The position numbers and the translations under genes were made by a program. A stretch of 64,000 nucleotides of DNA, taken from an uncultured Clostridia bacterium (GTDB lineage: Bacteria; Bacillota; Clostridia; Christensenellales; CAG-138). The stretch covers positions 6,446 through 70,445 of the forward strand of contig CAMKES010000010.1 in the NCBI GenBank assembly GCA_946411635.1. Direction: 5' to 3'. Below the pieces are notes generated by a model. The model saw only the letters and a program-made list of their open reading frames with translations. It did no database searches and had not been told where the DNA came from. Of the stretch, positions 26,636 to 55,800 are shown piece after piece (the stretch's first letter is position 1; each line of letters starts with the position of its first letter).

Positions 26636-26638
26636 CCG

Positions 26639-42895: not shown

Positions 42896-42906
42896 GTCCC
42901 GTCTCC

Positions 42907-44664
42907 TTATTTATTTGCCCGTATGCGTGATGTGATCTCTTTCAAAACGGCGTTTCGTTCCTCCGCCGTCAAATCCGGTCGTTTCAGTTCGGCCTGCAGC
43001 CGAAGGATCTCTTCCGCGTCGTTCTCCTGCTCAAGGCGTTTGATGCAGTCCTCCGCCGCGCGGTCGGCGTTCTCAAGCGCGTCCTCCTCGTGAAGGATCG
43101 CAGACGCGGTCTCGGCTTCATTCTCGGGAAGCTCGCCGATATACTTGGAGACCGAAAACGCCGCGCCCTGTTCCCGCATCGCGCGGAACATCTCCCGATA
43201 CGTCGCGTTGCGGAACAGTTTTTCCGCCGCGTCGCCGTCGATCCTGCGGATCACAGCGCCGTCGTGCAGACAGGCCAACAGCAGCGTGCGTTCGATGATC
43301 TCTCTGGGGTCCTCGGTTTCATCGATGCGTTTGCGGAAACCGCCGCGGATCGTCGTACCCGGATCCGTCGGCATGAGCCCGCCGCTGCGCATACCCTGCG
43401 CCTGCAGCGCTTCGAGCGCATAGCCCGTCTTTTTGCCGATCAGACGATAATACCGCTCCTGTTCGATTGGCTGCAGTCCGGCGACGAACGCGCATGCGGC
43501 CTTCGCGTACTGCTCCCTTCCGTTTTCATCGGTAAGATCGTATTTCTTCGCCATCGTCTCAAGCTTGAACGCATTCAGCGAAAGCGCGTTTTCCTTGAGC
43601 CGGTCGAAGCCTTCTTTTCCGTAGATCTGGACGTATTCGTCCGGATCGAGGTCGTCCGGGAACGTGATGACGCGGACTTCCAGGCCTTCGGCTCTCAGAA
43701 TGTCGAGCCCGCGCACCATGGCGTTCTGCCCGGCTGCATCGCCGTCGTAAGCGATGTAGACCTTCTCGACGAAGCGTTTCAGAAGCCTTGCCTGCTGCTG
43801 CGTCAGAGCCGTTCCGAGACTGGCGACCGCGTTGGTCACGCCTGCCTTGTAAAGTCCGATCACGTCCATGTACCCTTCGACCATGATCAGATCGTTGAGT
43901 TTTTCATTGCGATGCAGATACAGACCGTACAGATTGTTGCGCTTGTTGTAGACCGGCGTATCGCCCGTGTTGATGTACTTCGGCTTTTCATCGCCCATCA
44001 CGCGCGCACCGAAGCCTAAAACCTGCCCGTTCACGCCGAGGATCGGGAAGATCAGCCGACCGCGGAACGCATCGTATACGGTCCCGCGTTCGCTGTTGTG
44101 CACGAGCAGTCCCGCGTCCACCAGTTCCTTTTCGGCGTATCCCTTTTCTTTGAGATGCCTGAAAAGCGAATCCCAGGTGTCCGGCGCGAAGCCGATGCCG
44201 AATCGCTTGACGATCTCGGCGTTCAGCCCGCGTTTCGCGGCGTAAAGCTGCGCGTCTTTGCCTGTTTTCGGATCCAGAAAGACGCCGCAATAGTAACGCG
44301 CCGCTTCGGTATTTGCTTCGATCAGGCGTTTCTTGTACGCGCGCTGACGCTGCAGTTCCCGATCGTTGATCTCGTTCGGAAGCTCCATGCCGACGCGGTT
44401 TGCCAGCTGCTGGACCGCTTCATAGAACGAAAGCCGTTCCACGTCCATGACAAACTGGATCACCGTGCCGCCCGCGTGACAGCCGAAGCAGTAAAACAGC
44501 TGCTTGTCCGGAGAAACGGAAAACGACGGCGTCTTTTCGCCGTGCAGCGGACAGCACGCCCAAAGCTTGCGTCCCTTCGGCTTCAGTTCCACGTATTCCG
44601 AAACGACGGAAACGATATCGTTTTTGTGCATCAGCTCGTCGAGCCATGCGCTCGGGAATGCCAT
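42907..44664 (-). CDS. dnaG: DNA primase
   Basis: 585 aa. It has a Zn-ribbon ([24 protein letters not shown]). A TOPRIM domain is present (EGYMDV, DGDAAG). Confidence 0.93.
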
Positions 44665-44697
44665 CGCGTTCCTCCTTTCCCCGTATTTGACAAAACG

Positions 44698-45705
44698 TTA
44701 ACTCCAGCTTTTCGGCACGAACAGATGCTCGTAGGTGCCGATCGCGTAGATGTCGCTCATACCGGCGATGAAGTCCGCTACCGCGCGTTCTTTGCCTTCC
44801 TGCTCGAGCGTGCTGCGATATTCATCGTCCAGAAGCTCCGGATGATCGAAATAGTACTGATACAGCGCGCGGACAACACCCTTCGCCTTTCCTTCTTCGC
44901 TTTTGGCGATCGGATTCAGGTAGACGCGATCGAACATGAACTTGCGCAGGACCTTGAACTCCTCCGCATAATCCGGGGAAAAACGGATCTCTGCACTGTT
45001 CTGACTGTTTTCGATCACGTTGATGATCAGGCTGTTGATCCGCTTTGAATGGGTCGGACCGAACAGATCGATGCAGGAGCGCGGAAGGTCCTCTTCGGTC
45101 AGAACGCCTGCGCGCATCGCGTCGTCGATGTCGTGATTGATGTACGCGATCCGGTCGGCAAGCGATACCACCTTGCCCTCGACGGTCGCGGGATGGCCGC
45201 TGCTCGTGTGATTCACGATCCCGTCGCGCACTTCCCACGTGAGGTTCAGGCCTTTGCCGTCGTATTCGAGTTTTTCCACGACGCGAAGGCTCTGCTCGTT
45301 ATGCTTGAATCCGCCGGGCAGAAGCTCGTTCAGAACCTCTTCCCCCGCGTGACCAAACGGCGTATGACCGAGGTCGTGACCCATTGCGATCGCTTCGGCA
45401 AGGTCCTCGTTCAGCCGCAGGGCGCGCGCGATCGTTCTTGCGATCTGCGTGACTTCCAGCGTATGCGTCAGACGCGTGCGGTAGTGATCGCCTTTCGGCG
45501 CCAGAAAGACCTGTGTTTTATGCTTCAGACGGCGAAAAGATTTGCTGTGCAGGATCCTGTCGCGATCGCGGACGAACTCGGTGCGGACCGGGCAAAGCGG
45601 CATCGGTTCCTCTCTCCCGCGCGTGTTGACGGAAAGCGTCGCGAACGGAGAAAGCATCTGTTTCTCCCATTCTTCCCGCATTTTCCGGACTGATCCCTCT
45701 TCCAT
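44698..45705 (-). CDS. dGTP triphosphohydrolase-like HD-domain protein
   Basis: 335 aa. RTRLTHTLEVTQIAR and GHDLGHTPFGH motifs are present. It lies upstream of dnaG. Confidence 0.88.
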   Translation of the reverse strand: MEEGSVRKMREEWEKQMLSPFATLSVNTRGREEPMPLCPVRTEFVRDRDRILHSKSFRRLKHKTQVFLAPKGDHYRTRLTHTLEVTQIARTIARALRLNEDLAEAIAMGHDLGHTPFGHAGEEVLNELLPGGFKHNEQSLRVVEKLEYDGKGLNLTWEVRDGIVNHTSSGHPATVEGKVVSLADRIAYINHDIDDAMRAGVLTEEDLPRSCIDLFGPTHSKRINSLIINVIENSQNSAEIRFSPDYAEEFKVLRKFMFDRVYLNPIAKSEEGKAKGVVRALYQYYFDHPELLDDEYRSTLEQEGKERAVADFIAGMSDIYAIGTYEHLFVPKSWS

Positions 45706-45822
45706 ATCGGCCTCCGCAAAAACATTCTATAAATATATACGACAAAACTCCAAAAAATCCTTTTTTCCTATGAAAAAAACATCCGTTCGTCCGAAACGGC
45801 TGCAAATCGTTGCAAAAGATGC

Positions 45823-45850
45823 AAAAAAGGCGGGAGATCGCTCTCCCGCC
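45823..45850 (-). terminator. Rho-independent terminator after hydA
   Basis: Minus strand reads GGCGGGAGA gcga TCTCCCGCC followed by U6. Confidence 0.75.
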
Positions 45851-45865
45851 TTTCGGATCGGTTGA

Positions 45866-47608
45866 TTATTTGTACAGACCGCGCTCGGTGTAATGCGTAT
45901 GCAGAAGCTCGTGCGCCTTGTGGCCGTTCGGCTCGCCGAGGTAGTCGCGGTAAAGCGCCTGCACTTCGGGGTTCTCGTGGCTCTTGCGGAGCGGCATATT
46001 GTCGTCCTCGCCGTAGAGGCCGGCCGCACGCTTTGCGCGGAGATCGACGAAGTTCCGGACGGAACCGGGCTGGATCGGCTGACCGCCGCCGTTGACGCAG
46101 CCGCCGGGGCACGCCATGACCTCGACGAACTCGTACTGCTTCTCGCCGTTCTTGATCATGTCAAGGAGCTTCGAGGCATTCTCGAGGCCGCTTGTGACCG
46201 CAACGCGGACCTTGACGCCGTTGAGGTCGTATTCGGCTTCCTTGATCGCCGCGGTGCCGCGGACGTCGTGGAATTCGACCTTTTCAAGCGTCTTGCCGGT
46301 GACGACTTCGTACGCGGTACGCAGCGCAGCTTCCATAACGCCGCCGGTCGCGCCGAAGATGTGACCTGCGCCGGACGCAACGCCCAGCATCGGATCGCAG
46401 ACCTCTTCGGGGAGCTCCGCGAACTTGATGCCCGCGCGGCGGATCATGCGCGCCAGTTCACGCGTGGTGAGCGACACGTCGACGTCCGGTCTGCCGTCCC
46501 GACCGAGTTCGGAACGCTGCACCTCGAACTTCTTCGCGGTGCACGGCATGATGGAAACGACGAAGATCTTCTTCGGGTCGATGCCCATCTTCTCGGCATA
46601 GTAGGACTTGACGAGTGCGCCGAACATGCCCTGCGGCGACTTGCAGCTGGACAGATTCGGAATGAATTCCGGATAGTAGTGCTCGCAGAACTTGATCCAG
46701 CCGGGGCTGCAGCTCGTGATCAGCGGGAGCTTGCCGCCGTTCTTGAGGCGGTTGATGAGCTCGGTGCCCTCTTCCATGATGGTCACGTCAGCCGCATTGT
46801 CGACGTCGAAGACCTTGTCGAAGCCGAGACGGCGGAGCGCCGCGATCATCTTGCCTTCAACGTTCGTGCCGATCGGCATATCAAATTCCTCGCCGAGCTG
46901 TACGCGGACGGACGGCGCCGGGCCGACGACCACGTGCATTTCGGGATCGGAAAGCGCTTTCCAGACCTTGTCGGTATCGTCGCGTTCGGTGAGCGCGCCG
47001 GTCGGGCAAACGCTGATGCACTGACCGCAGTTGACGCAGGACGTGGTCGCGAGCGGAAGATCGAATGCGCTTGCGATGTGGGTCTTGAAGCCGCGCTCGT
47101 TTGCGCCGATGACGTTGCAGTGCTGGTTGTATTTGCAGACAGCCACGCAGCGACGGCAAAGGATGCACTTCGAGTTGTCGCGGATCAGATGGATCGCGGA
47201 ATCGTCGATGTCCGGTTCGGTGGGTGCGCCTTCGAACTTATGCGCATCGCAGCCGTATTCCTGAGAGAGTGCCTGCAGTTCGCAGTTGCCGCTTCTTACG
47301 CAGCTCAGGCAGTCCATGCGATGGTTCGAAAGCATCAGTTCGAGCGTCATCTTGCGGGATTCGCGAAGCGCGGGCGTGTTCGTCTGCACTTCCATGCCTT
47401 CGGCGACCTGCATCAGGCACGCAACGGGGTTCGAACGCGCGCCCTTGACTTCGACAACGCACATACGGCATGCGCCGATCGCGTTGATCTGCTTCATGTA
47501 GCAAAGGGTCGGAATCCGGATGCCGGCAAGCTCCGCCGCTTCCAGAATCGTGGAACCCGCGGGAACTTCGATCTCCATTCCGTTGATTTTCATTTTGATG
47601 GTATCCAT
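45866..47608 (-). CDS. hydA: [FeFe]-hydrogenase catalytic subunit, HydA/HndD type (M3 architecture with a fused small-subunit-like tail)
   Basis: 580 aa. Accessory domains are an N-terminal 2Fe-2S domain, a His-ligated 4Fe-4S domain and 2x[4Fe-4S]. H-cluster motifs are MPCTAKKFE and EVMACPGGCVNGGGQP. The L1 motif reads TSCSPGW (see findings). Confidence 0.92.
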   Translation of the reverse strand: MDTIKMKINGMEIEVPAGSTILEAAELAGIRIPTLCYMKQINAIGACRMCVVEVKGARSNPVACLMQVAEGMEVQTNTPALRESRKMTLELMLSNHRMDCLSCVRSGNCELQALSQEYGCDAHKFEGAPTEPDIDDSAIHLIRDNSKCILCRRCVAVCKYNQHCNVIGANERGFKTHIASAFDLPLATTSCVNCGQCISVCPTGALTERDDTDKVWKALSDPEMHVVVGPAPSVRVQLGEEFDMPIGTNVEGKMIAALRRLGFDKVFDVDNAADVTIMEEGTELINRLKNGGKLPLITSCSPGWIKFCEHYYPEFIPNLSSCKSPQGMFGALVKSYYAEKMGIDPKKIFVVSIMPCTAKKFEVQRSELGRDGRPDVDVSLTTRELARMIRRAGIKFAELPEEVCDPMLGVASGAGHIFGATGGVMEAALRTAYEVVTGKTLEKVEFHDVRGTAAIKEAEYDLNGVKVRVAVTSGLENASKLLDMIKNGEKQYEFVEVMACPGGCVNGGGQPIQPGSVRNFVDLRAKRAAGLYGEDDNMPLRKSHENPEVQALYRDYLGEPNGHKAHELLHTHYTERGLYK

Positions 47609-47619
47609 GGTCGCCCTCC

Positions 47620-49413
47620 TTATTTCTTGATGATGGCCGAGAACTTACAGCCTTCCATGCAGGCGCCGCACTTGATGCACTTCGACTGATCGATGACGTG
47701 CGGTTCCTTGACCTTGCCGGTGATCGCGCCTGCCGGGCACTTGCGCGCGCAGAGCGTGCAGCCGCGGCACTTGTCGGGCTGGATCTCATAATGCATGAGA
47801 TTCTTGCAGACGCCCGCCGGGCAGCGCTTTTCGACAACGTGCGCCTCATACTCGTCGCGGAAGTACTTCAGCGTGGACAGAACCGGGTTCGGCGCCGTCT
47901 GGCCGAGCGCGCACATCGCGTTCGCCTTGATGTACTTGCAGAGTTCTTCCATCTTGTCGAGATCTTCGAGCGTGCCGTTGCCGGACGTGATCTTGTCAAG
48001 CATTTCGAGAAGGCGTCTCGTACCGATACGGCACGGCGTGCACTTGCCGCAGCTCTCGTCGACCGTGAAGTCGAGGAAGAAGCGGGCGACGTCGACCATA
48101 CAGGTGGTTTCGTCCATGACGATCATACCGCCGGAGCCCATCATCGCGCCGATCTTGGTCAGGTTGTCGTAGTCGATCGGCAGATCGAGGAATTCCGCCG
48201 GGATGCAGCCGCCGGACGGACCGCCGGTCTGAACGGCCTTGAACTTCTTGCCGTTCGGGATGCCGCCGCCGATGTCGTAGATGATCTCGCGGAGCGTCGT
48301 GCCCATCGGGATTTCGACGAGGCCGGTGTTGACGATCTTGCCGCCGAGTGCGAAGACCTTGGTGCCCTTGCTGCGCTCGGTACCCATGGAAGCGAACCAT
48401 TCCGCACCCTTCAGAATGATCTGCGGGATGTTCGCGAGGGTCTCGACGTTGTTGATGATGGTCGGCTGACCGAACAGACCCTTGTTCGCCGGGAACGGGG
48501 GCTTGTTTCTCGGCTCGCCGCGGTTGCCCTCGATGGAGGTCAGAAGCGCGGTCTCTTCGCCGCAGACGAACGCGCCTGCGCCGAGACGGACTTCGATGTC
48601 GAAATCAAAGCCGGTGCCGAAGATGTCGGTGCCGAGCAGGCCGTATTCGCGAGCCTGTCCGATCGCGATCTCAAGACGCTTGACGGCGATCGGGTACTCA
48701 GCACGGACGTAGATGTAACCCTTGTTCGCGCCGATCGCATAACCTGCGATCGCCATTGCCTCGAGCACCGCATGCGGGTCGCCTTCGAGAACGGAACGGT
48801 CCATGAACGCGCCGGGGTCGCCCTCGTCCGCGTTGCAGACGACGTACTTCTGCGGAACCTTGTTCTTCGCGGCAAACTCCCATTTCATGCCGGTCGGGAA
48901 GCCTGCGCCGCCTCTGCCTCTGAGGCCCGAATCCTTCATGACCTGGATAACCTGTTCCGGGGTCATTTCGGTGAGGACCTTGCCGAGCGCGGCATAGCCG
49001 TCCATCGCAATGTACTCTTCGATCTGTTCCGGGTTGATGACGCCGCAGTTGCGAAGCGCAACACGCATCTGCGTCTTGTAGAAGCCGGTCTCCTGCAGAG
49101 ACGGGACCTCTACCTTTTCCTCGCCTTCGCTCTCGCGATACACGAGACGGTCGACCACGCGGCCCTTGAGAAGATGCTCCGTAACGATCTCCGGAACGTC
49201 CTCAAGCTTCACGCGGCTGTAGAACGTGCCCTCAGGGTACACGATCATGACCGGACCCAATGCGCAAAGGCCGAAGCAGCCCGTGCGTACGACCTTGACT
49301 TCGTCGGCAAGGCCGTTCAACGCGATTTGTTCTTCCAGCGAATCGGCAATCTTGACGCTGCCGGAAGAGGTACACCCCGTACCGCCGCAAATCAAAACAT
49401 GCGTACGAATCAT
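47620..49413 (-). CDS. hydB: NuoF-like flavoprotein subunit of bifurcating hydrogenase (HydB/HndC)
   Basis: 597 aa. It has an N-terminal thioredoxin-like 2Fe-2S domain. The NuoF FMN/NADH module is present (GRGGAGFPTG, CGKCTPCR). It has C-terminal 2x[4Fe-4S] ferredoxin motifs. Confidence 0.92.
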   Translation of the reverse strand: MIRTHVLICGGTGCTSSGSVKIADSLEEQIALNGLADEVKVVRTGCFGLCALGPVMIVYPEGTFYSRVKLEDVPEIVTEHLLKGRVVDRLVYRESEGEEKVEVPSLQETGFYKTQMRVALRNCGVINPEQIEEYIAMDGYAALGKVLTEMTPEQVIQVMKDSGLRGRGGAGFPTGMKWEFAAKNKVPQKYVVCNADEGDPGAFMDRSVLEGDPHAVLEAMAIAGYAIGANKGYIYVRAEYPIAVKRLEIAIGQAREYGLLGTDIFGTGFDFDIEVRLGAGAFVCGEETALLTSIEGNRGEPRNKPPFPANKGLFGQPTIINNVETLANIPQIILKGAEWFASMGTERSKGTKVFALGGKIVNTGLVEIPMGTTLREIIYDIGGGIPNGKKFKAVQTGGPSGGCIPAEFLDLPIDYDNLTKIGAMMGSGGMIVMDETTCMVDVARFFLDFTVDESCGKCTPCRIGTRRLLEMLDKITSGNGTLEDLDKMEELCKYIKANAMCALGQTAPNPVLSTLKYFRDEYEAHVVEKRCPAGVCKNLMHYEIQPDKCRGCTLCARKCPAGAITGKVKEPHVIDQSKCIKCGACMEGCKFSAIIKK

Positions 49414-49428
49414 TCTGTCTTTCCTCCG

Positions 49429-49800
49429 TTATCCTTCCACCGCACCGATGGTATATTTTGTGACGGGCTTGCCGCCGATCAGATGCTCTTTAACGATCTC
49501 GGGAACCATTTCGGGCTTGACCTTGACGTAGGTCACGCGCTCCTTGTCACCCTCGAATACTTCAACGATCGGCTCAAAGCGGCACATGCCGATGCAGCCG
49601 GTTTGCGTGACGGTCACGCGATCTCCGAGGTTCTGCTCCGCAACCTGTTCCACAAGCGCGTTCAGAACGGGACGCGCGCCTGCCGCGATGCCGCAGGTCG
49701 CCATGCCGACGACGACGCGGATCTCACCGGTGCCTTCCCGAAGCGCGACCTTGTTTTTCATTCTGTCACGAATCTGTGCAAGTTCTTCCAACGTTTTCAT
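49429..49800 (-). CDS. Thioredoxin-like [2Fe-2S] ferredoxin (HndB/HydD-like)
   Basis: 123 aa. Cys motifs occur in MATCGIAAG and GCIGMCRFEP. It lies between the regulatory genes and hydB. Confidence 0.8.
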   Translation of the reverse strand: MKTLEELAQIRDRMKNKVALREGTGEIRVVVGMATCGIAAGARPVLNALVEQVAEQNLGDRVTVTQTGCIGMCRFEPIVEVFEGDKERVTYVKVKPEMVPEIVKEHLIGGKPVTKYTIGAVEG

Positions 49801-49837
49801 GTGATTGATCCTTTCGTTCTGTTATTTTTGAATATCG

Positions 49838-50392
49838 TCAAGCCTCCGCAGCATACTGCTCCGTCAGCATATCCCGGATCCATGCGAGGACCTCGTATTC
49901 GTCGAGAGGTACCTCTTCTCCCAATACCTGTCTCAGCTCGCGCGTGTCGAGTTCGACCGTGCGATCCGGCAGCGTGTGCCGGAAAACAAAATCCGTTTCC
50001 GCGCTTCCGCGGATCAGGAGCGTGATCGTGGAAACTACATCGCCGAGCGGCGTGAAATCCAGATGCGTCTTATCGAACGTCGCCGTGATCTCCGTCCCGC
50101 AGTGTTCCGGATCGACCGATCGTTCCACGGAACGGATCGAAAGCGATCCTCCGGTCTGTTCGGCCGCCAGCTTCAGAAGCGGGATCCCCATCCCGACCTT
50201 GCGCGTGGTGCGCGTCGTGGAGAACGGATCGACGACGGTCTTTAAAAATGCTTCGGACATGCCGTATCCGTTGTCGCGGATCGTGATCGTGAGCGTCGTT
50301 TCCGTTTCGTCCAGCAGGATCTCGATCAACGTCGCTTCGGCGCGGATCGAATTCTGCGTGATGTCAAGAATGTTCAGCGAAAGCTCTTTCAA
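49838..50392 (-). CDS. Stand-alone GHKL/histidine-kinase-like ATPase domain protein (no HisKA/DHp domain)
   Basis: A TTG start at 50392 (GGGAGGG upstream) overlaps the PHP gene stop (TTGA). N-box NILDITQNS, G1 DNGYGM and G2 GMGIPL are present. The ORF-track N-terminal extension to 50698 is rejected. Confidence 0.75.
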   Translation of the reverse strand: MKELSLNILDITQNSIRAEATLIEILLDETETTLTITIRDNGYGMSEAFLKTVVDPFSTTRTTRKVGMGIPLLKLAAEQTGGSLSIRSVERSVDPEHCGTEITATFDKTHLDFTPLGDVVSTITLLIRGSAETDFVFRHTLPDRTVELDTRELRQVLGEEVPLDEYEVLAWIRDMLTEQYAAEA

Positions 50393-51108
50393 AGCGTTCC
50401 CTCCCGCAGCTTCCGGAACAGTGCATGCCGCACCGCTTCGGGTTCCGTGCCTTCCACGTCCAGCGTGATGCTTCCGCCCGCATCGCCGATCTCCCAAAGC
50501 CGGTGTGCATCCGAGCTCAGAATGATCGCGCGTCCCTCCGCCAGATCGCGGTTCTTCGCCTCGCGCAGTTCCGCAATGTGAAACACGGGCTCCGGCGGAA
50601 ACGATCCGAGGACTGCCAGAAGTCCGTTCGAATCGCGGTCGATGTGCGCCGGCCAGCATACGCCGTCGTACGATGCGACGAGCTCCGCAGCGGCACACAG
50701 ATCCAGGTCCGTCGCCGCCGGCAGGAAGAACGGTTCTTCGCCGATCTTCTCGTCGCGCTCGTTCAAAATCGGCTGTTCGCCGAACACGTCGACGCGGTTT
50801 TTGATCCGCATCCGGTGCGGCCGGATCTCTTTCCCGAACGACATCGCCGCTTCAAGCGTTTCGAAGACGCACAGAAGGTGGATGTCCTCCGCCGTCGTCA
50901 GTTCCATCCCGGCCACGGGAACGATCCCGTATTCCCCGCACGCGGCAAAGAATGCCGGACAGTTGTCGACCGCGTTGTGATCGGTCAGCGCGAGAAGTCC
51001 GATCTCATTGAGATGCGCCATGCCCGCAATGTTGCAGGGCGTCATATCCATGTCCCCGCACGGGGACAGGCACGAATGCAGATGCAGATCGTACTTCAGC
51101 GTCCTCAT
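50389..51108 (-). CDS. PHP-domain metal-dependent phosphoesterase
   Basis: 239 aa. DLHLHSCLSPCGD and LTDHN motifs are typical of the PHP fold. Confidence 0.8.
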   Translation of the reverse strand: MRTLKYDLHLHSCLSPCGDMDMTPCNIAGMAHLNEIGLLALTDHNAVDNCPAFFAACGEYGIVPVAGMELTTAEDIHLLCVFETLEAAMSFGKEIRPHRMRIKNRVDVFGEQPILNERDEKIGEEPFFLPAATDLDLCAAAELVASYDGVCWPAHIDRDSNGLLAVLGSFPPEPVFHIAELREAKNRDLAEGRAIILSSDAHRLWEIGDAGGSITLDVEGTEPEAVRHALFRKLREGTL

Positions 51109-51434
51109 CCGATCAGTGCGCCGACTTCGACGCAGACGGAAAAGGTCGACTTATCCGAAAGCAGAAGGTTCAGCCCGTGGACCCTCGCCGCGTTGACCGC
51201 GGCTTCGTCCGGACGGACGCCTTCAGAAAACACGATGCAGGCGCAGTCGGTCAGCTGTCCGACCGCCGCAACGTTCACGTTCGACATGATCGTGACCCAG
51301 CAGTCGCCGCTCTCGGCGCGGCCCATGACCCAGCTCAGCAGATCCCCCGCGTATCCGCCGGTGATATCGCGATCTCCGTCGGACAGCAGTAAGGGCTCAT
51401 ATCCGGTTTTTTCGATCAGTTCGCGTACCGTCAT
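51105..51434 (-). CDS. DRTGG-domain protein (copy 2)
   Basis: 109 aa with a DITGGYAGDLLS motif. It overlaps the PHP gene start by 4 nt. Confidence 0.75.
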   Translation of the reverse strand: MTVRELIEKTGYEPLLLSDGDRDITGGYAGDLLSWVMGRAESGDCWVTIMSNVNVAAVGQLTDCACIVFSEGVRPDEAAVNAARVHGLNLLLSDKSTFSVCVEVGALIG

Positions 51435-51441
51435 ATCGTTC

Positions 51442-52725
51442 TCACTTTCCGTCGTCGCGTTCCAGCTCCCGCAGCAGTTCCCGCATGCGGATCACGCAGT
51501 CGTCAAGCTTTGATTCTCCGCGGACGACGTCCTCCGCGTGCGCGCGGCACGTCGGCGCGCCGCACGAGCCGCAGTCCATTCCGGGAAGCAGATTTCTGAT
51601 CCGCTCGATCTCGGACATCATGCGGAAAGAAAGCATCCGGTCCGCGTTCAGGATCTCGGCAGAGCTGTATTCGCCCGGTTCGACCGTCATGACTTCATGC
51701 GGGATCGGTTCGTTCTCGCCGAGAATGACGTGATTCTGCGCGACCGGCATATACCGCTGCAGCGTCCGGATGCGGACGCGCGCGATATAGGGATTCTCGA
51801 CCGCCATAACGCCGCCGACGCAGCCGCCGGGACAGGCGTTCATCTCGACGAATTTCAGATCCGGGAAATGTCCCATCTCGATATCGTCAAGCACGCGGAT
51901 GATGTTCTCGATGCCGTCCGCCGCGAGATAATGGTCGTTCATCAGCGCGCTTGCTTCGCCGCCGGACGACGACCAGCTCATGCCGATCATGCCGGACTCG
52001 GATGTGATCTCGGGGATCCTTGCCCGATCCATTTTGGACAGGAGGCGGAAGTAAATATCGCTCATCGAAACGACGTAGTCGACGTAACGTTCCTTATCCG
52101 GCGGCGTGTTCTTGACCCAGCTCACCTTCGCGGGACAGGGTGAAATGAACACGGTGCGGACGTCTTCCGGTTTCAGTTCGGGGTTTTCCTTCAGCGCGCG
52201 CTCCTTCGCGAGCTTGCCTGCAAGCTCGATCGGCGGCGCGATCGGGACCATCTTGTTTCTGAGCGTCGGGAAACGCAGCGAGATCAGACGGACGACGACC
52301 GGGCACGCGGTGCTGATGAACGGCGCGTGTGACATTCCCATGCGCTGCATGTACGTGCGCGTGTAGTCCGTGACCATTTCCGCCGCTTTCGCGACTTCGA
52401 AAACCTCGCTGAAGCCGAGGTTAATGAGACCCTGCAGCAGATAATCCGTATCGTCCAGATTGGCAAACTGGCCGAACAGCGACGGCGCGGGAAGCGCGAT
52501 CAGATACTTGTCGTGATCGATCGAATCCCATTCGTCGAAGCTCGCTTTTTTTGCCTTGTACGGACAATGCCGAATGCATTCGCCGCAGTCGATACAGAGG
52601 TTCGGATTGATACAAGCTTTGCCGTTTCGGATCCGGATCGCCTGCGTGGGGCAGCGGCGCAAGCAGGTGGTACACCCCTTGCACTTCGTCTCATCCAGGG
52701 ATACGGAATGCTTGTATACGATCAT
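51442..52725 (-). CDS. Putative sensory [FeFe]-hydrogenase-like protein (HydS-like, group D-type architecture)
   Basis: 427 aa. The N-terminus has 2x[4Fe-4S] motifs (CKGCTTCLRRCP, CIDCGECIRHCP). The degenerate H-domain motifs are STACPVV, SPCPAKV and MNACPGGCVGG. The C-terminus carries Cx2Cx4Cx16C (CGSCGAPTCRAHAEDVVRGESKLDDC). Confidence 0.8.
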   Translation of the reverse strand: MIVYKHSVSLDETKCKGCTTCLRRCPTQAIRIRNGKACINPNLCIDCGECIRHCPYKAKKASFDEWDSIDHDKYLIALPAPSLFGQFANLDDTDYLLQGLINLGFSEVFEVAKAAEMVTDYTRTYMQRMGMSHAPFISTACPVVVRLISLRFPTLRNKMVPIAPPIELAGKLAKERALKENPELKPEDVRTVFISPCPAKVSWVKNTPPDKERYVDYVVSMSDIYFRLLSKMDRARIPEITSESGMIGMSWSSSGGEASALMNDHYLAADGIENIIRVLDDIEMGHFPDLKFVEMNACPGGCVGGVMAVENPYIARVRIRTLQRYMPVAQNHVILGENEPIPHEVMTVEPGEYSSAEILNADRMLSFRMMSEIERIRNLLPGMDCGSCGAPTCRAHAEDVVRGESKLDDCVIRMRELLRELERDDGK

Positions 52726-52734
52726 GTCTCCTCC

Positions 52735-53169
52735 TTATGCGGATCTGAATTTCATTTCGATCGTCGTGCCGACACCGACAACGGAATCGATCTTGAGTTC
52801 GTCCGAATACCGTTTCATATTCGGAAGGCCCATGCCTGCTCCGAAGCCGAGCGAACGAATGTTGTCCGGTGCGGTCGAATACCCTTCCTGCATCGCAAGG
52901 TTTACGTCCTTGATGCCGGGGCCGACGTCCTTCAGAATGACCGTGACGCACTCCGGCGTCACGTAGACGTCCGCGTCTCCGCCCTTGGCGTGGATGACCA
53001 TATTGATCTCGCCTTCATACATGGCGACGGAGATCCTCCGGATTAGATCCGGATGGAATCCCATCTGCCGAAGCATGCGCTTGACCTGCACGGATGCTTC
53101 GCCGGCAGACGTGAAATTGTTTCCGTCTACGTCGTAATGGAAATGCAGTGCTCCCTGTTCCGGTGTCAT
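52735..53169 (-). CDS. RsbW/SpoIIAB-like anti-sigma-type serine kinase (HATPase_c_2) protein
   Basis: 144 aa. Motifs EGEINMVIHA, DVGPGI and GFGAGMGLPN are present. It is a single-domain GHKL kinase-like protein. Confidence 0.72.
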   Translation of the reverse strand: MTPEQGALHFHYDVDGNNFTSAGEASVQVKRMLRQMGFHPDLIRRISVAMYEGEINMVIHAKGGDADVYVTPECVTVILKDVGPGIKDVNLAMQEGYSTAPDNIRSLGFGAGMGLPNMKRYSDELKIDSVVGVGTTIEMKFRSA

Positions 53170-53504
53170 CGTCCCAAGCCGCCTTCGTATAGTTTTCCAC
53201 TGGACTCATACATGGTAAGGTCCGTTTCCAGCAACGCGATATGGTTTTCCTCGGCAAGCCGCTTGATCTCGGTCGTTGCGATCTTGCCGCGTACGATGAT
53301 GATGCAGCGCATATCCAGCATGTGCGCAGTGCGTACGATCTGCGGATTCAGCAGTCCCGTCAGAAGGACGTCGCGATTCTCCGCAAAAGCAAGCACGTCG
53401 CTCATCATGTCGCTGCCGAACGCACCGGTCAGATCCTCGTCGAGCTGTTCGGGCTCGGCATACACGGTTGCGTTCAGGCGTTCGGCCATCTCCCGGATCG
53501 TCAT
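53166..53504 (-). CDS. DRTGG-domain protein (copy 1)
   Basis: 112 aa with a DLTGAFGSDMMSDVL..LLTG motif region. It overlaps the kinase-like gene start by 4 nt. Confidence 0.75.
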   Translation of the reverse strand: MTIREMAERLNATVYAEPEQLDEDLTGAFGSDMMSDVLAFAENRDVLLTGLLNPQIVRTAHMLDMRCIIIVRGKIATTEIKRLAEENHIALLETDLTMYESSGKLYEGGLGR

Positions 53505-53520
53505 GTTCGTTTCCTTTCGA

Positions 53521-54018
53521 TTATGCGCGGAATTTGTCTACAATGCCCTTGACGTCCGCCGGAACCAGACGGCCGTACACTTCGTCGTCGATCGTCATGA
53601 CCGGAGCAAGACCGCAGCAGCCGAGGCAGCGCGTTGCTTCCAGCGTGAACTTGCCGTCGTTCGTCGTGTGACCCGCCTTGATGCCGAGCTGACGCTCCAG
53701 CTCCGCAAGAATGTCCGCGGAACCTTTGACGTAGCACGCAGTACCGAGGCAGACACGGATCAGATGCTCACCCTTCGGCTCGAGCGTGAACCACGAATAG
53801 AACGTGGAAACGCCGTACACCTGCTCGAGCGAAACACCGAGTCCTTCGGCTACCATCGTCTGCACCTCGATCGGCAGATACCCATAGATCTCCTGCGCCT
53901 TCTGGAGCACAGGCATCATCGCGCCGGACTGGCCCTTGTGCTGCGCGATGACTTCCTTCAGTTGCGCCTCCTGCTCGGGGGTTCCCCGGAACGGGATCTC
54001 AGTAATCTTGTTCGTCAT
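53521..54018 (-). CDS. hydC: NuoE-like thioredoxin-fold [2Fe-2S] subunit (HydC/HndA)
   Basis: 165 aa. NuoE Cys motifs are CLGTAC and CLGCCGLAP. It is the first gene of the hydrogenase operon. Confidence 0.9.
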   Translation of the reverse strand: MTNKITEIPFRGTPEQEAQLKEVIAQHKGQSGAMMPVLQKAQEIYGYLPIEVQTMVAEGLGVSLEQVYGVSTFYSWFTLEPKGEHLIRVCLGTACYVKGSADILAELERQLGIKAGHTTNDGKFTLEATRCLGCCGLAPVMTIDDEVYGRLVPADVKGIVDKFRA

Positions 54019-54056
54019 ACATCCTCCTTAGAAGTTCAGATAACTGACCAAAGGAT

Positions 54057-54085
54057 ATTATAGCATACTACTCCCGTGATTTCCA
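54057..54085 (-). promoter_or_regulatory. Candidate promoter of the hydrogenase operon
   Basis: Minus strand reads TGGAAA, a 17-nt spacer, then TGcTATAAT (extended -10), within an AT-rich intergenic region. The -35 element is weak. Confidence 0.4.
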
Positions 54086-54252
54086 TAGATTTTTGCAACA
54101 TCTTTTTCTATATTTTTCGTATAAAAGCCGTTTGGTCATGAAAATTCCGCAAAAAAATAGCAAAAAAATGAATTTGCATACTTTTCTTTTTCGTTCAAAT
54201 CGTGTATGATATATGTACCCATAGGAGTATTATATTAGGAAGGGGATTCTTT

Positions 54253-55152
54253 ATGGCAAAGAAAATCAGATTTAAGCCCACTCCGGCCGGAATCATGTTC
54301 CTGTCTGCCATTGCCGTACTGCTGATCGCGATCATCGTTCTGACAGTGATGGCAGTCAAGAACTGCAATACGACGAGAACGGTCGACCCGGATGCGGATG
54401 CATCCGCCGTCGCATCGATCGAACCTGTCGATTCTGCGCTGCCTTCCACCGAGCCGATCGGCTCTACGGAACCCATCGGTTCTGCAGATCCCGTCGATCC
54501 CAGCGCAACGCCCGACGATACCGACCCCGACAATACGGCGAGCGCGGATCCTTCGGCCGATCCGTCCGGCAGCGCATCCATTCCGCCCGTTGTTGTAAAT
54601 ACGCCCACCTCCGGCACCGATGCGCCCGCATCCGGTTCCGCCGAACCGACGGCAACGCCCGGACCGACGTACTACACCAAGCCGACCAGCGCGATGAAGC
54701 AAAACGCGCAGAAGGGCTACGTCAGCCACGATAAGGTCAACATGCGCAAGGAGCCGAACAAGAACTCGACGCTTGTTAAGGAAAAGATCGCAAAGAACAC
54801 CGAACTCACGCTCTACGTCGAGCAGGAGGGCTGGTGGTTCGTGAAGTGCGGAGACAAATACGGCTACATCAAGAAGGACTACGTTGCAAAGGGCTCCGCG
54901 CCTTCGACGCCTTCGAGCACGGAAGCAACCGGCAAGGTCATTGCTTCGACCATTGCGCTGCGCAAAGAACCGGACAAGGGCTCGACCTGCATCAAGCAGT
55001 ACTATAACGGCGAGAGCCTGAAGATCTTCTACTACAAGAAGGACGGCTCCGGCAGAAAATGGTACTACGTCAAGACCAGCGACGGCAAGACCGGCTTCAT
55101 GTTCTCCGAGTACATCAAGGTCACTTCCGGCAAAGTCAACGAAAAGAATTGA
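54253..55152 (+). CDS. Membrane-anchored protein with a low-complexity linker and two SH3b-like domains
   Basis: The start is at MAKKIRFKP. It has a TM anchor and a D/P/S/T-rich linker with EPIGSTEPIGSADP repeats. Two SH3_3-like modules follow (GYVSHDKVNMRKEP..GWWFVKCGDKYGYIKKDYV and KVIASTIALRKEP..KWYYVKTSDGKTGFM). Confidence 0.75.
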   Translation: MAKKIRFKPTPAGIMFLSAIAVLLIAIIVLTVMAVKNCNTTRTVDPDADASAVASIEPVDSALPSTEPIGSTEPIGSADPVDPSATPDDTDPDNTASADPSADPSGSASIPPVVVNTPTSGTDAPASGSAEPTATPGPTYYTKPTSAMKQNAQKGYVSHDKVNMRKEPNKNSTLVKEKIAKNTELTLYVEQEGWWFVKCGDKYGYIKKDYVAKGSAPSTPSSTEATGKVIASTIALRKEPDKGSTCIKQYYNGESLKIFYYKKDGSGRKWYYVKTSDGKTGFMFSEYIKVTSGKVNEKN

Positions 55153-55166
55153 CCCTTCGCTTCAAA

Positions 55167-55196
55167 CAAAAGACCCGCGATTTCGCGGGTCTTTTT
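55167..55196. terminator. Bidirectional terminator between the SH3b gene and the convergent five-gene operon
   Basis: AGACCCGCGA tt TCGCGGGTCT with flanking A and T runs. Confidence 0.75.
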
Positions 55197-55215
55197 CATT
55201 ACCGTTTTGCATTCG

Positions 55216-55800
55216 TTATTCGGGGTCGACCGCCGAAATGTTCTTTGACCGGATCTCGACCGTGACGTCCTCGTACGGCATGACGAATTCATAATACAGA
55301 TAATCGCTGTCGGGACCGTCCGTCTGCTGCGCGGCCGTACCGTTCACGAGGACCTCGGTCGACACGTCAAAGATCAGACCGAGCTTCAGAATGACGGTTT
55401 CTCCCGGATATGCCGTTCCGGGCGGATCGATCAGGCGGCCGACGTCGCCGTCATATTCGATCGGAAGCGGCTGCATGAGCATGTCGCTGCCGCCGAGCGA
55501 ATACGTCACCTCAATGTCGTGGTCGGGCATGATGAAGGTGTAAACGAGGTACGCATATCCGTCGTACTCGGGAGAAAGCCGTACGCCGTCCGCCGTTACC
55601 GTCGGCGAGGCGTCCATCACGACGTACGTTTTGAGACGCACCTCCTCCCCCGCTTCATACGCGTCCTCCGCGTCAACGAAAATGCCCTTTTTTTCACCGT
55701 AATCGACGTGATACTTCGGTGCGCTCTTCGCGCATCCGGTGAAAAGCGCGGCTGCCGCCGCAAGCGCCGCCGTGCAGCGCAGAAGCTTCCGGGATCTCAT
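55216..55800 (-). CDS. Hypothetical lipoprotein
   Basis: 194 aa with a signal peptide and lipobox (ALFTGC). I recognise no family. Confidence 0.6.
   Translation of the reverse strand: MRSRKLLRCTAALAAAAALFTGCAKSAPKYHVDYGEKKGIFVDAEDAYEAGEEVRLKTYVVMDASPTVTADGVRLSPEYDGYAYLVYTFIMPDHDIEVTYSLGGSDMLMQPLPIEYDGDVGRLIDPPGTAYPGETVILKLGLIFDVSTEVLVNGTAAQQTDGPDSDYLYYEFVMPYEDVTVEIRSKNISAVDPE

What the first reader, a model, noticed from the sequence alone, without database searches (positions are those of the whole stretch)
45823..54085. Bifurcating-type HydABC [FeFe]-hydrogenase operon interrupted by a six-gene putative H2-sensing/phospho-signalling module with no recognisable output domain
Ten co-directional minus-strand genes lie between one candidate promoter (54057-54085) and one terminator (45823-45850). 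All gaps are 37 nt or less, and three junctions overlap by 4 nt.

Gene order:
- NuoE-like HydC
- DRTGG protein
- RsbW-like kinase
- HydS-like sensory hydrogenase
- DRTGG protein
- PHP phosphoesterase
- GHKL ATPase
- 2Fe-2S ferredoxin
- NuoF-like HydB
- HydA

The regulatory genes sit between the structural subunit genes rather than beside the operon. This implies co-expression and possibly physical association with the enzyme. I see no response regulator, HisKA/DHp, STAS, sigma factor or DNA-binding domain anywhere in the cluster. The target of the two kinase-like ATPases and of the PHP phosphoesterase is therefore not explained by any standard two-component or partner-switching scheme.

Sensory [FeFe]-hydrogenases have been studied as isolated proteins. 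To my knowledge the signalling partners encoded next to them have not been functionally resolved. Post-translational control of the HydABC complex itself is a plausible but untested reading.
Basis: partly seen in the sequence, partly recalled or inferred. Interest (0 to 1): 0.8.

Follow-up and report, generated by a model that had tools for sequence, protein, structure and literature searches.

The report
Hydrogenase operon with embedded hydrogen-sensor genes
This is a ten-gene operon for an NADH/ferredoxin-linked [FeFe]-hydrogenase that carries, between its subunit genes, a known but mechanistically unsolved set of putative hydrogen-sensing and kinase/phosphoesterase genes; the gene set is widespread in gut and rumen Clostridia, so it is a good example of an open question, not a new discovery.

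Summary
Ten co-directional minus-strand genes run from a conserved promoter (54085-54057) to a strong terminator (45850-45823). The gaps are 16, -4, 9, 7, -4, -4, 37, 15 and 11 nt. All ten domain calls are confirmed.

Refinements:
- The "HydS-like" protein is a Group D (M2e) putative sensory [FeFe]-hydrogenase of the TamHydS type, with no PAS domain.
- The GHKL gene and the "2Fe-2S ferredoxin" correspond by description and position to Acetobacterium woodii HydE and HydD. The core operon is therefore hydC-E-D-B-A, with a five-gene insert: DRTGG1, RsbW-like kinase, HydS, DRTGG2, PHP.

The same order occurs in 79 of 80 species-level genomes. The same gene set, with the module upstream of hydC, was described in 2012-2014 in Halanaerobium, Thermoanaerobacter, Caldicellulosiruptor and C. 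thermocellum.

No output domain lies in or near the cluster in any lineage I examined. A paper from April 2026 still calls the signalling partners unidentified.

New hints here:
- a natural DRTGG2::PHP fusion;
- a HydS-less DRTGG-kinase-DRTGG-PHP cassette;
- a locus where the module sits with NuoE/NuoF-type genes and a formate dehydrogenase instead of HydA.

Verdict: a new member of a known kind, with the mechanism open.

The parts
54136..54167 (-). Conserved upstream block A (TTTTTGC-n4-TTTTTGCGGAATTTTCATGA). It is a candidate operator or UP element.
   Evidence: It is conserved in L001-L018 while neighbouring sequence varies. It is the only match in the 64 kb window, against 0.02 expected.
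54079..54117 (-). Conserved upstream block B. It contains TTGCAAAAA, an inverted copy of the block A half-site, and overlaps the -35 hexamer.
   Evidence: Alignment of upstream regions.
54057..54085 (-). Sigma-70-type promoter: TGGAAA, 17 nt spacer, extended -10 TGcTATAAT.
   Evidence: It is the best match in the scan (10 of 12) and is conserved in relatives.
53521..54018 (-). hydC: NuoE-like [2Fe-2S] subunit, 165 aa. The ribosome-binding site AAGGAGG lies at 54029-54023.
   Evidence: PF01257 at 1e-53. It passes the NCBIfam NuoE NF005722 cut-off, 148.6 against 141 bits.
53166..53504 (-). DRTGG1: a 112-aa single-domain DRTGG-fold protein. Invariant motifs are SDMMSDVL, TGLxNxQ and VRGK.
   Evidence: PF07085 at 26.6 bits. 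The AlphaFold2 model has pLDDT 94.8 and matches 2ioj with TM 0.80. Conservation is shown.
52735..53169 (-). RsbW/SpoIIAB-like serine-kinase-type GHKL ATPase, 144 aa. It overlaps DRTGG1 by 4 nt.
   Evidence: HATPase_c_2 at 6e-10. The closest solved structure by sequence is SpoIIAB 1th8, at 1e-6. The N-box, G1 and G2 motifs are invariant.
51442..52725 (-). Group D (M2e) putative sensory [FeFe]-hydrogenase, 427 aa. It has 2x[4Fe-4S], an H-domain and a C-terminal Cx2Cx4Cx16C motif, and no PAS domain.
   Evidence: Pfam. The motifs are STACP (Ala at CpI C299), SPCPAK (Ser at M353), NACPGGC and C385-x2-C388-x4-C393-x16-C410. The defining criteria come from PMC8163306.
51105..51434 (-). DRTGG2: a 109-aa paralogue of DRTGG1. 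Its motifs are GDLLSxxM and TIMSNxN.
   Evidence: hhalign gives 99% probability, E 2.7e-18, against DRTGG1. BLASTP gives 1e-11.
50389..51108 (-). PHP-family metal-dependent phosphoesterase, 239 aa. It overlaps DRTGG2 by 4 nt.
   Evidence: PF02811 at 1.8e-7. The metal-binding residues D7, H9, H11, D43, H44, E69, H77, H155, D200 and H202 are conserved across 78 distant homologues. The AlphaFold2 model has pLDDT 97.5; the nearest folds are EndoQ, pAp phosphatase and RNase AM.
49838..50392 (-). HydE-type GHKL ATPase, 184 aa: a histidine-kinase catalytic (CA) domain without a DHp domain, plus a roughly 75-aa C-terminal extension. It has a TTG start and overlaps PHP by 4 nt.
   Evidence: HATPase_c at 7.7e-13. 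A profile search against the PDB finds the CA domain of KinB at 2e-11. The equivalent protein is described in A. woodii (PMC3315566).
49429..49800 (-). HydD-like thioredoxin-fold protein, 123 aa, with only three Cys.
   Evidence: PF01257 at 26 bits. Cys36, Cys69 and Cys73 are visible in the translation. A. woodii HydD is reported to have 'no cofactor binding sites'.
47620..49413 (-). hydB: NuoF-like FMN/NAD(H) subunit with an N-terminal [2Fe-2S] domain and a C-terminal 2x[4Fe-4S] domain, 597 aa.
   Evidence: Complex1_51K at 1.8e-49 and NADH_4Fe-4S at 4e-36.
45866..47608 (-). hydA: catalytic [FeFe]-hydrogenase subunit, 580 aa.
   Evidence: NCBIfam FeFe_hydrog_A6 at 899 bits, above its cut-off. 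The closest solved structure by sequence is A. woodii HydA1, 7q4v, at 3.5e-210.
45823..45850 (-). Intrinsic terminator: a 9-bp GC-rich stem, a GCGA loop and a T6 run.
   Evidence: Sequence. The fold is -23.9 kcal/mol with z = -5.1.

Best explanation
**What it is (shown).** This is one transcription unit for an A. woodii-type HydABC(D)(E) NADH/ferredoxin-linked, presumably electron-bifurcating, [FeFe]-hydrogenase. A five-gene cassette is inserted between hydC and hydE. The cassette is built around a Group D (M2e) putative H2-sensing hydrogenase.

**How it most likely works (inferred).**
1. HydS binds H2 at a slow, proton-pathway-deficient H-cluster and changes conformation.
2. This change sets the balance between two opposing enzymes: the RsbW/SpoIIAB-like serine kinase and the PHP phosphoesterase.
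3. Each of these enzymes is paired with its own small DRTGG-fold subunit. DRTGG1 is translationally coupled to the kinase. DRTGG2 is coupled to PHP and, in one case, fused to it.
4. The resulting phosphorylation state acts at the protein level, not through a DNA-binding protein encoded nearby. The likely target is the NuoE/NuoF-type electron-input module, or the HydE-type GHKL protein that always accompanies it.
5. Enzyme activity or direction would thereby be matched to H2 partial pressure.

The system works like a partner-switch (kinase against phosphatase). It lacks the STAS, PP2C and sigma-factor parts that define one.
For: - **Identity of the parts:**
- **One operon:** a single conserved promoter, a strong terminator and tight or overlapping junctions. 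The overlaps are conserved across genomes: DRTGG1>kinase in 80% of loci, DRTGG2>PHP in 88%, HydS>DRTGG2 in 64% and PHP>GHKL in 50%.
- **Synteny:** the order is kept in 79 of 80 species-level genomes, down to 53% HydS identity.
- **Sensor-type features:** the HydS motifs match the published Group D description, and TamHydS has sensor-like kinetics (PMC8163306).
- **Enzymes look active:** the kinase ATP-binding boxes and the PHP metal ligands are invariant.
- **DRTGG2-PHP partnership:** a natural DRTGG2::PHP fusion (P0305) has a 25-aa linker.
- **Kinase/phosphoesterase core is separable from the sensor:** L082 carries DRTGG1-kinase-DRTGG2-PHP without HydS.
- **Output is probably not transcriptional in cis:** no DNA-binding, receiver, STAS or sigma gene lies in the cluster, and none is conserved within 5 kb in the 80 related genomes.
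- **Target is more likely the NuoE/NuoF/GHKL part than HydA:** in L088 the whole module plus HydC-GHKL-HydD-HydB precedes a probably selenocysteine-containing formate dehydrogenase instead of HydA. GHKL stays with the module when the module lies downstream of hydA (L085-L087).
- **Precedent for DRTGG-type domains on phosphoryl-handling enzymes:** by fold, the relatives of DRTGG1 are the DRTGG domain of CBS-pyrophosphatase and the N-terminal domain of HPr kinase/phosphorylase.
Against: - No experiment links any of these proteins. No substrate of the kinase or the phosphoesterase is known, and single-chain models cannot show complexes.
- The PHP protein's nearest solved relatives act on nucleotides or nucleic acids (EndoQ, pAp phosphatase, RNase AM, polymerase PHP domains). 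No CpsB/YwqE-type protein phosphatase is among the top matches. A phosphoprotein substrate is therefore not the default expectation.
- In the related Group C system, deleting hfsB changes transcript levels of adhE and other genes (PMC5707799). This points to at least some transcriptional output.
- Conserved blocks upstream of the promoter suggest a trans-acting DNA-binding regulator.
- TamHydS is reported next to an AraC-family regulator.
- The 2026 TamHydS study found that the C-terminal cluster is not reduced by H2, which challenges earlier signalling ideas.
- The fusion (L081), the HydS-less cassette (L082) and the formate dehydrogenase locus (L088) each rest on a single contig.
Confidence: 0.45

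Rival explanations
1. Transcriptional H2 sensor with a remote output. HydS, the kinase and PHP set the phosphorylation state of a small protein, possibly a DRTGG protein. That protein then controls a DNA-binding regulator or an alternative sigma factor encoded elsewhere in the genome. The regulator acts on the hyd promoter and on fermentation genes.
For: - Conserved sequence blocks with a repeated TTTTTGC half-site lie upstream of and over the -35 hexamer.
- The Group C hfs system alters adhE and other transcript levels (PMC5707799).
- TamHydS is flanked by an AraC-family regulator (PMC8163306).
- Rex lies next to the L088 locus.
- RsbW/SpoIIAB-type kinases classically control sigma factors.
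Against: - No regulator gene is conserved in or near the cluster in the 80 genomes or in the variant architectures.
- No Rex box lies at the promoter.
- No STAS-fold protein is present: DRTGG1 matches DRTGG and HPrK N-domain folds only.
- The only sigma gene nearby is the housekeeping rpoD, in the dnaG-rpoD operon.
Confidence: 0.27
2. Assembly, maturation or repair factors instead of signalling. The GHKL ATPases act as chaperone-like ATPases. The HydS-like protein and the PHP/DRTGG proteins help to build or maintain the Fe-S clusters and H-cluster of HydABC.
For: - The authors of the A. woodii genome paper left open 'assembly or signalling' for HydE, which is absent from the purified enzyme (PMC3315566).
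- An Mrp/NUBPL Fe-S carrier ATPase lies immediately upstream of hydC in 12 loci.
- The GHKL superfamily includes Hsp90 and MutL.
Against: - The 144-aa protein is specifically SpoIIAB-like, the protein-kinase branch.
- The HydS motif changes (no proton-relay Cys; Ser at M353) are those of low-turnover, sensor-like enzymes.
- HydABC enzymes assemble in organisms that lack the cassette, such as A. woodii.
- The DRTGG-kinase-DRTGG-PHP cassette exists without any hydrogenase gene nearby (L082).
Confidence: 0.1
3. Nucleotide-based signalling. PHP hydrolyses a nucleotide or a nucleotidyl modification (pAp-like, a dinucleotide, or a de-AMPylation reaction). The DRTGG proteins are the nucleotide-binding receptors. 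The 'kinases' act as nucleotide-dependent switches, not as protein kinases.
For: - All significant structural neighbours of PHP act on nucleotides or nucleic acids.
- DRTGG domains sit in the adenine-nucleotide-regulated part of CBS-pyrophosphatase.
- The subfamily-specific invariant [SG]D[LM][LM]S motif of the DRTGG proteins lies at a strand-loop-helix N-terminus, a typical phosphate-binding geometry.
Against: - No cyclase, synthetase or nucleotidyl-transferase lies in any of the loci.
- In CBS-pyrophosphatase the nucleotides bind the CBS domains, not the DRTGG domain (my own recollection, not checked here).
- The SpoIIAB-like protein keeps all kinase motifs.
Confidence: 0.1

Closest known systems
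Group D (M2e) putative sensory [FeFe]-hydrogenase loci: TamHydS of Thermoanaerobacter mathranii; Cthe_0335, Athe_1292, Csac_1857 and Teth39_1463 (PMC8163306, PMC3561251)
   Same: The protein architecture matches: 2x[4Fe-4S], an H-domain and a Cx2Cx4Cx16C motif, with no PAS domain. The motif changes match (no C299; Ser at M353). The gene lies next to kinase-like genes and a trimeric group A hydrogenase.
   Different: In those genomes the sensor gene lies about five genes upstream of the catalytic genes, before hydC. Here the cassette lies after hydC. No AraC-type gene is adjacent here.
Halanaerobium hydrogeniformans putative operon Halsa_1871-1862 (PMC4237134)
   Same: The gene content is largely the same: an unnamed ORF, an anti-sigma-type Ser/Thr kinase, a Fe-S/hydrogenase-like sensor, PHP, NuoE, a histidine-kinase-like ATPase, a ferredoxin-like protein, NuoF and HydA.
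   Different: The module precedes NuoE. The sensor is annotated as two genes. No separate DRTGG2 gene is listed.
Acetobacterium woodii hydC-hydE-hydD-hydB-hydA1 (PMC3315566; structure 7q4v)
   Same: HydA is the closest solved relative by sequence (E 3.5e-210) and shares the TSCSPGW motif. HydE is a GHKL ATPase-only protein. HydD is a small protein without a full cluster-binding site. The core gene order is the same.
   Different: The A. woodii operon, as described, has five genes and no HydS/DRTGG/kinase/PHP cassette.
Group C sensory systems: hfsABCD of Thermoanaerobacterium saccharolyticum and HydS of Ruminococcus albus or Thermotoga maritima (PMC5707799)
   Same: A sensor-type hydrogenase is encoded with kinase and phosphatase genes (my recollection: an RsbW-like kinase; the paper read here names a 'Ser/Thr protein kinase'). 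No cognate STAS, sigma factor or transcription factor is encoded in the operon (my recollection). A regulatory phenotype is documented.
   Different: Those sensors carry a PAS domain. The phosphatase is of the PP2C type (my recollection), not PHP. There are no DRTGG proteins.
RsbW-RsbV-RsbU/P and SpoIIAB-SpoIIAA-SpoIIE partner-switching modules
   Same: Both have a small GHKL Ser-kinase. The gene for a small partner protein lies immediately upstream and overlaps the kinase gene. An opposing phosphatase is present.
   Different: The partner here has a DRTGG fold, not a STAS fold. The phosphatase is PHP, not PP2C. No sigma factor target is encoded.
[NiFe] regulatory hydrogenase system HoxBC-HoxJ-HoxA of Ralstonia eutropha
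   Same: The logic is the same: a slow, inhibitor-tolerant hydrogenase acts as an H2 sensor that controls a kinase.
   Different: The proteins are unrelated. HoxJ is a true histidine kinase and HoxA is a DNA-binding response regulator. Neither type is present here.

Membership tests
Group D (M2e) putative sensory [FeFe]-hydrogenase | [quoted passage not shown] | tested here: met
   Two Fer4 domains and Fe_hyd_lg_C at 2e-32. Cys141 (STACP), Cys197 (SPCPAK), Cys298 and Cys302 (NACPGGC) are conserved in 80 orthologues.
Group D (M2e) putative sensory [FeFe]-hydrogenase | The proton-relay Cys (CpI C299) is absent, and M353 is replaced by Ser or Thr | tested here: met
   Ala140 aligns with the C299 position and Ser195 aligns with M353. 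The criteria come from PMC8163306.
Group D (M2e) putative sensory [FeFe]-hydrogenase | A C-terminal Cx2Cx4Cx16C motif and no PAS domain | tested here: met
   C385-x2-C388-x4-C393-x16-C410. PF04060 at 2e-13. No PAS hit.
Group D (M2e) putative sensory [FeFe]-hydrogenase | Phylogenetic placement inside the Group D clade, and H2-sensing behaviour | not tested
   I built no tree with reference Group A-G sequences. Biochemistry is not possible with these tools.
Group C (M2f) HydS (TmHydS/HfsB type) | A PAS domain after the C-terminal cluster motif | tested here: not met
   The protein ends 17 residues after the last Cys of the motif. There is no PAS hit.
Trimeric NADH/ferredoxin-linked (bifurcating-type) [FeFe]-hydrogenase HydABC | A HydA with a full H-cluster domain and a NuoG-like N-terminus, a NuoF-like HydB with an FMN site, and a NuoE-like HydC, all in one operon | tested here: met
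   (FeFe_hydrog_A6, 899 bits against a 765-bit cut-off). One search gives 7q4v and 8a6t as the best solved matches.
Trimeric NADH/ferredoxin-linked (bifurcating-type) [FeFe]-hydrogenase HydABC | Electron-bifurcating activity | not testable with these tools
   This is inferred only from similarity to the A. woodii and T. kivui enzymes.
RsbW/SpoIIAB partner-switching module | A GHKL serine kinase of the HATPase_c_2 type | tested here: inconclusive
   Pfam HATPase_c_2 gives 39.7 bits against a 27.4-bit cut-off, and the closest PDB match is SpoIIAB. The NCBIfam SpoIIAB equivalog gives only 59 bits against its 135-bit cut-off. The protein is a relative, not an orthologue.
RsbW/SpoIIAB partner-switching module | A STAS-domain antagonist, a PP2C phosphatase and a target sigma factor | tested here: not met
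   There is no STAS, PP2C or sigma domain in the cluster. The DRTGG1 model matches no STAS structure. The only sigma gene nearby is the housekeeping rpoD at 42895-41357.
Two-component system | A HisKA/DHp phospho-acceptor domain and a receiver domain | tested here: not met
   The GHKL protein aligns only to the CA domain of histidine kinases. There is no receiver domain in the cluster or its flanks.
DRTGG domain (PF07085) | The DRTGG fold and sequence family | tested here: met
   DRTGG1 is just above the Pfam cut-off, and Foldseek gives TM 0.80 to AF1212 and 0.78 to the CBS-PPase DRTGG domain. DRTGG2 qualifies only through profile comparison with DRTGG1. The name-giving TGGDR motif is replaced by TGLxNPQ or TIMSNxN, and a subfamily-specific [SG]D[LM][LM]S motif appears.
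PHP phosphoesterase | A PHP barrel with conserved His/Asp/Glu metal ligands | tested here: met
PHP-type protein phosphatase (CpsB/YwqE) | Closest similarity to the protein-tyrosine-phosphatase branch of the PHP family | tested here: not met
   No CpsB/YwqE structure appears among the sequence-profile or Foldseek matches. The top matches are EndoQ, BAD_1165, TM0559, Cv1693 and RNase AM. This lowers the case for membership but does not exclude a phosphoprotein substrate.

The most novel reading that the evidence does not exclude
The four-protein core (DRTGG1, SpoIIAB-like kinase, DRTGG2, PHP phosphoesterase) is an undescribed phospho-switch that lacks STAS, PP2C and sigma-factor parts. It takes input from a Group D H2-sensing hydrogenase. 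Acting directly on the protein, through the HydE-type GHKL ATPase, it gates the NuoE/NuoF electron-bifurcating module shared by HydABC hydrogenases and NAD-linked formate dehydrogenases. This would be post-translational control of flavin-based electron bifurcation by H2 partial pressure.
Probability: 0.25. Interest if true: 0.8.

Novelty: new member of a known kind. Interest (0 to 1): 0.45.

Why it matters
Bifurcating hydrogenases set how much H2 fermenting gut and rumen Clostridia release. That H2 feeds methanogens. How these bacteria sense H2 and adjust the enzyme is unknown. The only characterised Group D sensor, TamHydS, has no identified partner as of 2026.

This locus and its relatives give a defined and strongly conserved candidate partner set. 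They also give three natural variants that suggest who talks to whom:
- a DRTGG2::PHP fusion;
- a HydS-less cassette;
- a locus where a formate dehydrogenase replaces HydA.

That makes the open question directly testable, although it was already approachable in cultured Thermoanaerobacter, Caldicellulosiruptor and C. thermocellum.

Tried and rejected
- **Rex control.** I found no Rex box (TTGTGAA-n6-TTCACAA or -n4-) near the promoter. The two matches with 2-3 mismatches elsewhere in the window are at chance level.
- **Riboswitch or leader RNA.** An Rfam E-value scan of 45000-55500 gave only two sub-threshold, terminator-like hits.
- **DRTGG as a disguised STAS antagonist.** This is rejected at the fold level. 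Foldseek finds DRTGG, HPrK N-domain and Mur-ligase N-domain structures but no STAS.
- **PHP as a CpsB-type protein phosphatase.** Neither the sequence profile nor the fold supports this.
- **A conserved neighbouring regulator.** Clustering of all ORFs within 5 kb of the operon in 80 genomes found only lineage-specific neighbours: an SH3 protein, a dGTPase-like HD protein, an Mrp/NUBPL ATPase and GyrB.
- **HydA TSCSPGW as a sequencing error.** This is rejected. The motif is in all 48 orthologues and in the solved A. woodii HydA1.
- **The two GHKL proteins as paralogues.** They show no significant pairwise similarity.
- **Zheng et al. 2014 on R. albus HydS.** The paper could not be read because it is not held.
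- **hydEFG maturase genes.** I checked one radical-SAM ORF in the window (26639-27682). It is RlmN.

Full report
**1. Observation**

The region holds ten minus-strand ORFs. Junction gaps are 16, -4, 9, 7, -4, -4, 37, 15 and 11 nt. The seventh gene starts at a TTG inside TTGA, behind a GGGAGGG ribosome-binding site.

The promoter TGGAAA-17-(TG)cTATAAT at 54085-54057 is the best sigma-70 match in 10 kb. The 17 closest genomes keep it, while the surrounding intergenic sequence diverges.

The terminator at 45850-45823 is a 9-bp GC stem with a T6 run. It folds at -23.9 kcal/mol, z = -5.1. Internal promoter-like and terminator-like matches do not exceed the shuffle expectation. The description given in the finding is accurate.

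**2. Identity of the genes**

Pfam and NCBIfam confirm the following:
- a NuoE-like HydC;
- a NuoF-like HydB;
- a HydA that passes the curated cut-off for 'NADH-dependent [FeFe] hydrogenase, group A6'. Its best solved relative is A. woodii HydA1, 7q4v, at E 3.5e-210.

The 427-aa 'HydS-like' protein has these features:
- two N-terminal [4Fe-4S] motifs;
- an H-domain with the cluster Cys residues;
- Ala in place of the proton-relay Cys;
- Ser in place of M353;
- a C-terminal Cx2Cx4Cx16C motif;
- no PAS domain.

These are the features used to define the M2e/Group D putative sensors, exemplified by TamHydS (PMC8163306). It is not the PAS-bearing Group C type.

The remaining proteins are as follows:
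- The 144-aa protein is SpoIIAB/RsbW-like.
- The 184-aa protein is a histidine-kinase CA domain without a DHp domain.
- The 239-aa protein is a PHP phosphoesterase with conserved metal ligands. It gives a confident model.
- DRTGG1 is a true DRTGG fold (pLDDT 94.8; TM 0.80 to 2ioj).
- DRTGG2 fails the Pfam cut-off but is a full-length paralogue of DRTGG1.
- The 123-aa 'ferredoxin' has only three Cys.

**3. What belongs to what**

A. woodii has hydC-hydE-hydD-hydB-hydA1. [quoted passage not shown] HydD has no cofactor site (PMC3315566).

The window therefore holds that core operon with five genes inserted between hydC and hydE. The five genes are DRTGG1, the kinase, HydS, DRTGG2 and PHP.

**4. 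Comparative evidence**

A scan of one genome per species returned 80 loci. They come from rumen and gut Clostridia: Christensenellales, Oscillospiraceae, Acutalibacteraceae and Ca. Flemingiibacterium. HydS identity ranges from 93% to 53%.
- All ten genes are in the window's order in 44 loci.
- 35 shorter contigs hold a contiguous subset in the same order.
- One locus (L055) has the cassette before hydC.
- The 4-nt overlaps are conserved. This suggests two translationally coupled blocks: DRTGG1-kinase and HydS-DRTGG2-PHP-GHKL.
- No flanking gene is conserved across lineages, and none is a regulator.

More distant PHP homologues (33-40% identity) show further architectures:

| Loci | Gene order |
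|---|---|
| L083, L084, L089 | (HydS-)DRTGG2-PHP before hydC; short contigs, HydS seen in L083/L084 only |
| L085-L087 | cassette plus GHKL, which in L085/L086 follows hydA and a thymidylate kinase gene |
| L088 | DRTGG1-kinase-HydS-DRTGG2-PHP-HydC-GHKL-HydD-HydB, then a probably selenocysteine-containing molybdopterin formate dehydrogenase, then Rex |
| L082 | DRTGG1-kinase-DRTGG2-PHP, with no HydS, GHKL or hyd genes |
| L081 | DRTGG1 followed by a DRTGG2::PHP fusion, divergent from hydC-GHKL-hydD |

L081, L082 and L088 are single contigs and should be treated as leads.

**5. Mechanism**

What is shown:
- the parts themselves;
- their co-transcriptional layout;
- their co-inheritance;
- intact ATP-binding and metal-binding residues;
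- the absence of any recognisable output domain.

What is inferred:
- HydS is the H2 input.
- The SpoIIAB-like kinase and the PHP phosphoesterase are antagonists.
- Each of the two enzymes is paired with a DRTGG subunit. This resembles the DRTGG-type domains attached to other phosphoryl-handling enzymes, namely CBS-pyrophosphatase and HPr kinase/phosphorylase.
- The output acts on proteins of the NuoE/NuoF/GHKL module.

Two observations favour a protein-level output. No regulator is present in cis in any lineage examined. The formate dehydrogenase variant keeps HydC-GHKL-HydD-HydB but not HydA.

Four observations count against certainty:
- The nearest structural relatives of PHP act on nucleotides or nucleic acids, not on proteins.
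- The related hfs system changes transcript levels.
- Conserved blocks with a repeated TTTTTGC element lie upstream of and over the -35 hexamer.
- TamHydS has an AraC-type neighbour.

I give the protein-level phospho-switch about 0.45 and a remote transcriptional output about 0.27. Assembly factors and nucleotide signalling get about 0.1 each.

**6. Comparison with what is known**

The link between M2e sensors, kinases and trimeric hydrogenases was tabulated in 2012 for Caldicellulosiruptor, C. thermocellum and Thermoanaerobacter (PMC3561251). A ten-gene operon with largely the same content was drawn for Halanaerobium in 2014 (PMC4237134).

TamHydS has been characterised as an isolated protein. 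In April 2026 the same group still listed identification of its interaction partners as the critical missing step. I found no paper that assigns substrates to the kinase-like proteins or to PHP.

The system resembles a partner-switch in logic. It fails the membership test because it has no STAS, PP2C or sigma factor. It is not a two-component system because it has no DHp or receiver domain.

**7. Verdict**

The finding is real and correctly described. It is a new member, with a lineage-specific gene order, of a known and widespread operon type whose regulatory mechanism is an acknowledged open problem. It would not surprise a specialist. Its value is as a well-conserved, compact instance, with informative natural variants, for testing how Group D sensors signal.

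Noticed in passing
window 54079-54167 (minus strand): Two sequence blocks upstream of and overlapping the -35 hexamer are conserved in 17 related genomes, while the spacer between them varies in sequence and length. They contain a direct repeat, TTTTTGC-n4-TTTTTGC, and an inverted copy, TTGCAAAAA. This is a possible operator for an unknown regulator.
   Followed up: partly
window 46696-46719 (HydA residues 297-304): The HydA P1 motif reads ITSCSPGW, with Ser where CpI has the cluster-ligand Cys300. The Ser is invariant in all 48 orthologues and is also present in the solved A. woodii HydA1 (7q4v). It is therefore a trait of this HydA clade and not an error.
   Followed up: partly
window 49429-49800: The small thioredoxin-like 'ferredoxin' has only three Cys (C36, C69, C73). 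The first CxxxxC motif is reduced to one Cys. This matches the description of A. woodii HydD as lacking a cofactor site.
   Followed up: partly
L088:6645-16505 (GCA_964474005.1): The full sensory cassette plus HydC-GHKL-HydD-HydB is followed by a NuoG-like/molybdopterin formate dehydrogenase instead of HydA, and then by a Rex repressor gene. The formate dehydrogenase has an in-frame stop at the expected selenocysteine position (ARL*HAAT) and a second in-frame stop earlier in the gene.
   Followed up: partly
L082:723-2589: A DRTGG1-kinase-DRTGG2-PHP cassette occurs without a sensory hydrogenase, GHKL or hyd genes. It lies directly after a gene fragment with a thiamine-pyrophosphate enzyme C-terminal domain and before hisS-aspS.
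   Followed up: partly
L081:1917-3434: DRTGG1 is followed by a natural DRTGG2::PHP fusion (373 aa, with a Lys/Ala-rich linker). The pair is divergently oriented from hydC-GHKL-hydD. No kinase or HydS lies on the 5.7 kb contig.
   Followed up: partly
window 51058-51084 (PHP residues 9-17): The PHP motif I reads HLHSCLSPCGD. Cys17 is invariant across 78 distant homologues. From memory, related PHP enzymes have an Asp-containing SDG motif at this position. The Cys could be an unusual metal ligand or a redox-sensitive residue.
   Followed up: no
window 41357-45705 (minus strand): Immediately downstream of the hyd terminator lies a dGTPase-like HD gene, then dnaG and the housekeeping sigma factor rpoD. 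This neighbourhood is shared only with the closest relatives.
   Followed up: partly
window 24477-30831 (plus strand): This is a housekeeping cluster: fmt, rsmB, rlmN, a Hanks-type Ser/Thr kinase (28298-29959) and rsgA. The radical-SAM gene here is RlmN, not a hydrogenase maturase.
   Followed up: partly
homologues of window 53166-53504: JGI names some DRTGG1 homologues 'predicted transcriptional regulator' or 'serine kinase of HPr protein'. Neither Pfam nor the predicted fold shows a DNA-binding domain in the window's DRTGG1, so such names are not evidence of a transcriptional output.
   Followed up: partly
L044, L050, L064, L075-L077 and others (12 loci): An Mrp/NUBPL-type Fe-S cluster carrier ATPase gene lies co-directionally about 36 nt upstream of hydC in one sub-lineage.
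   Followed up: partly
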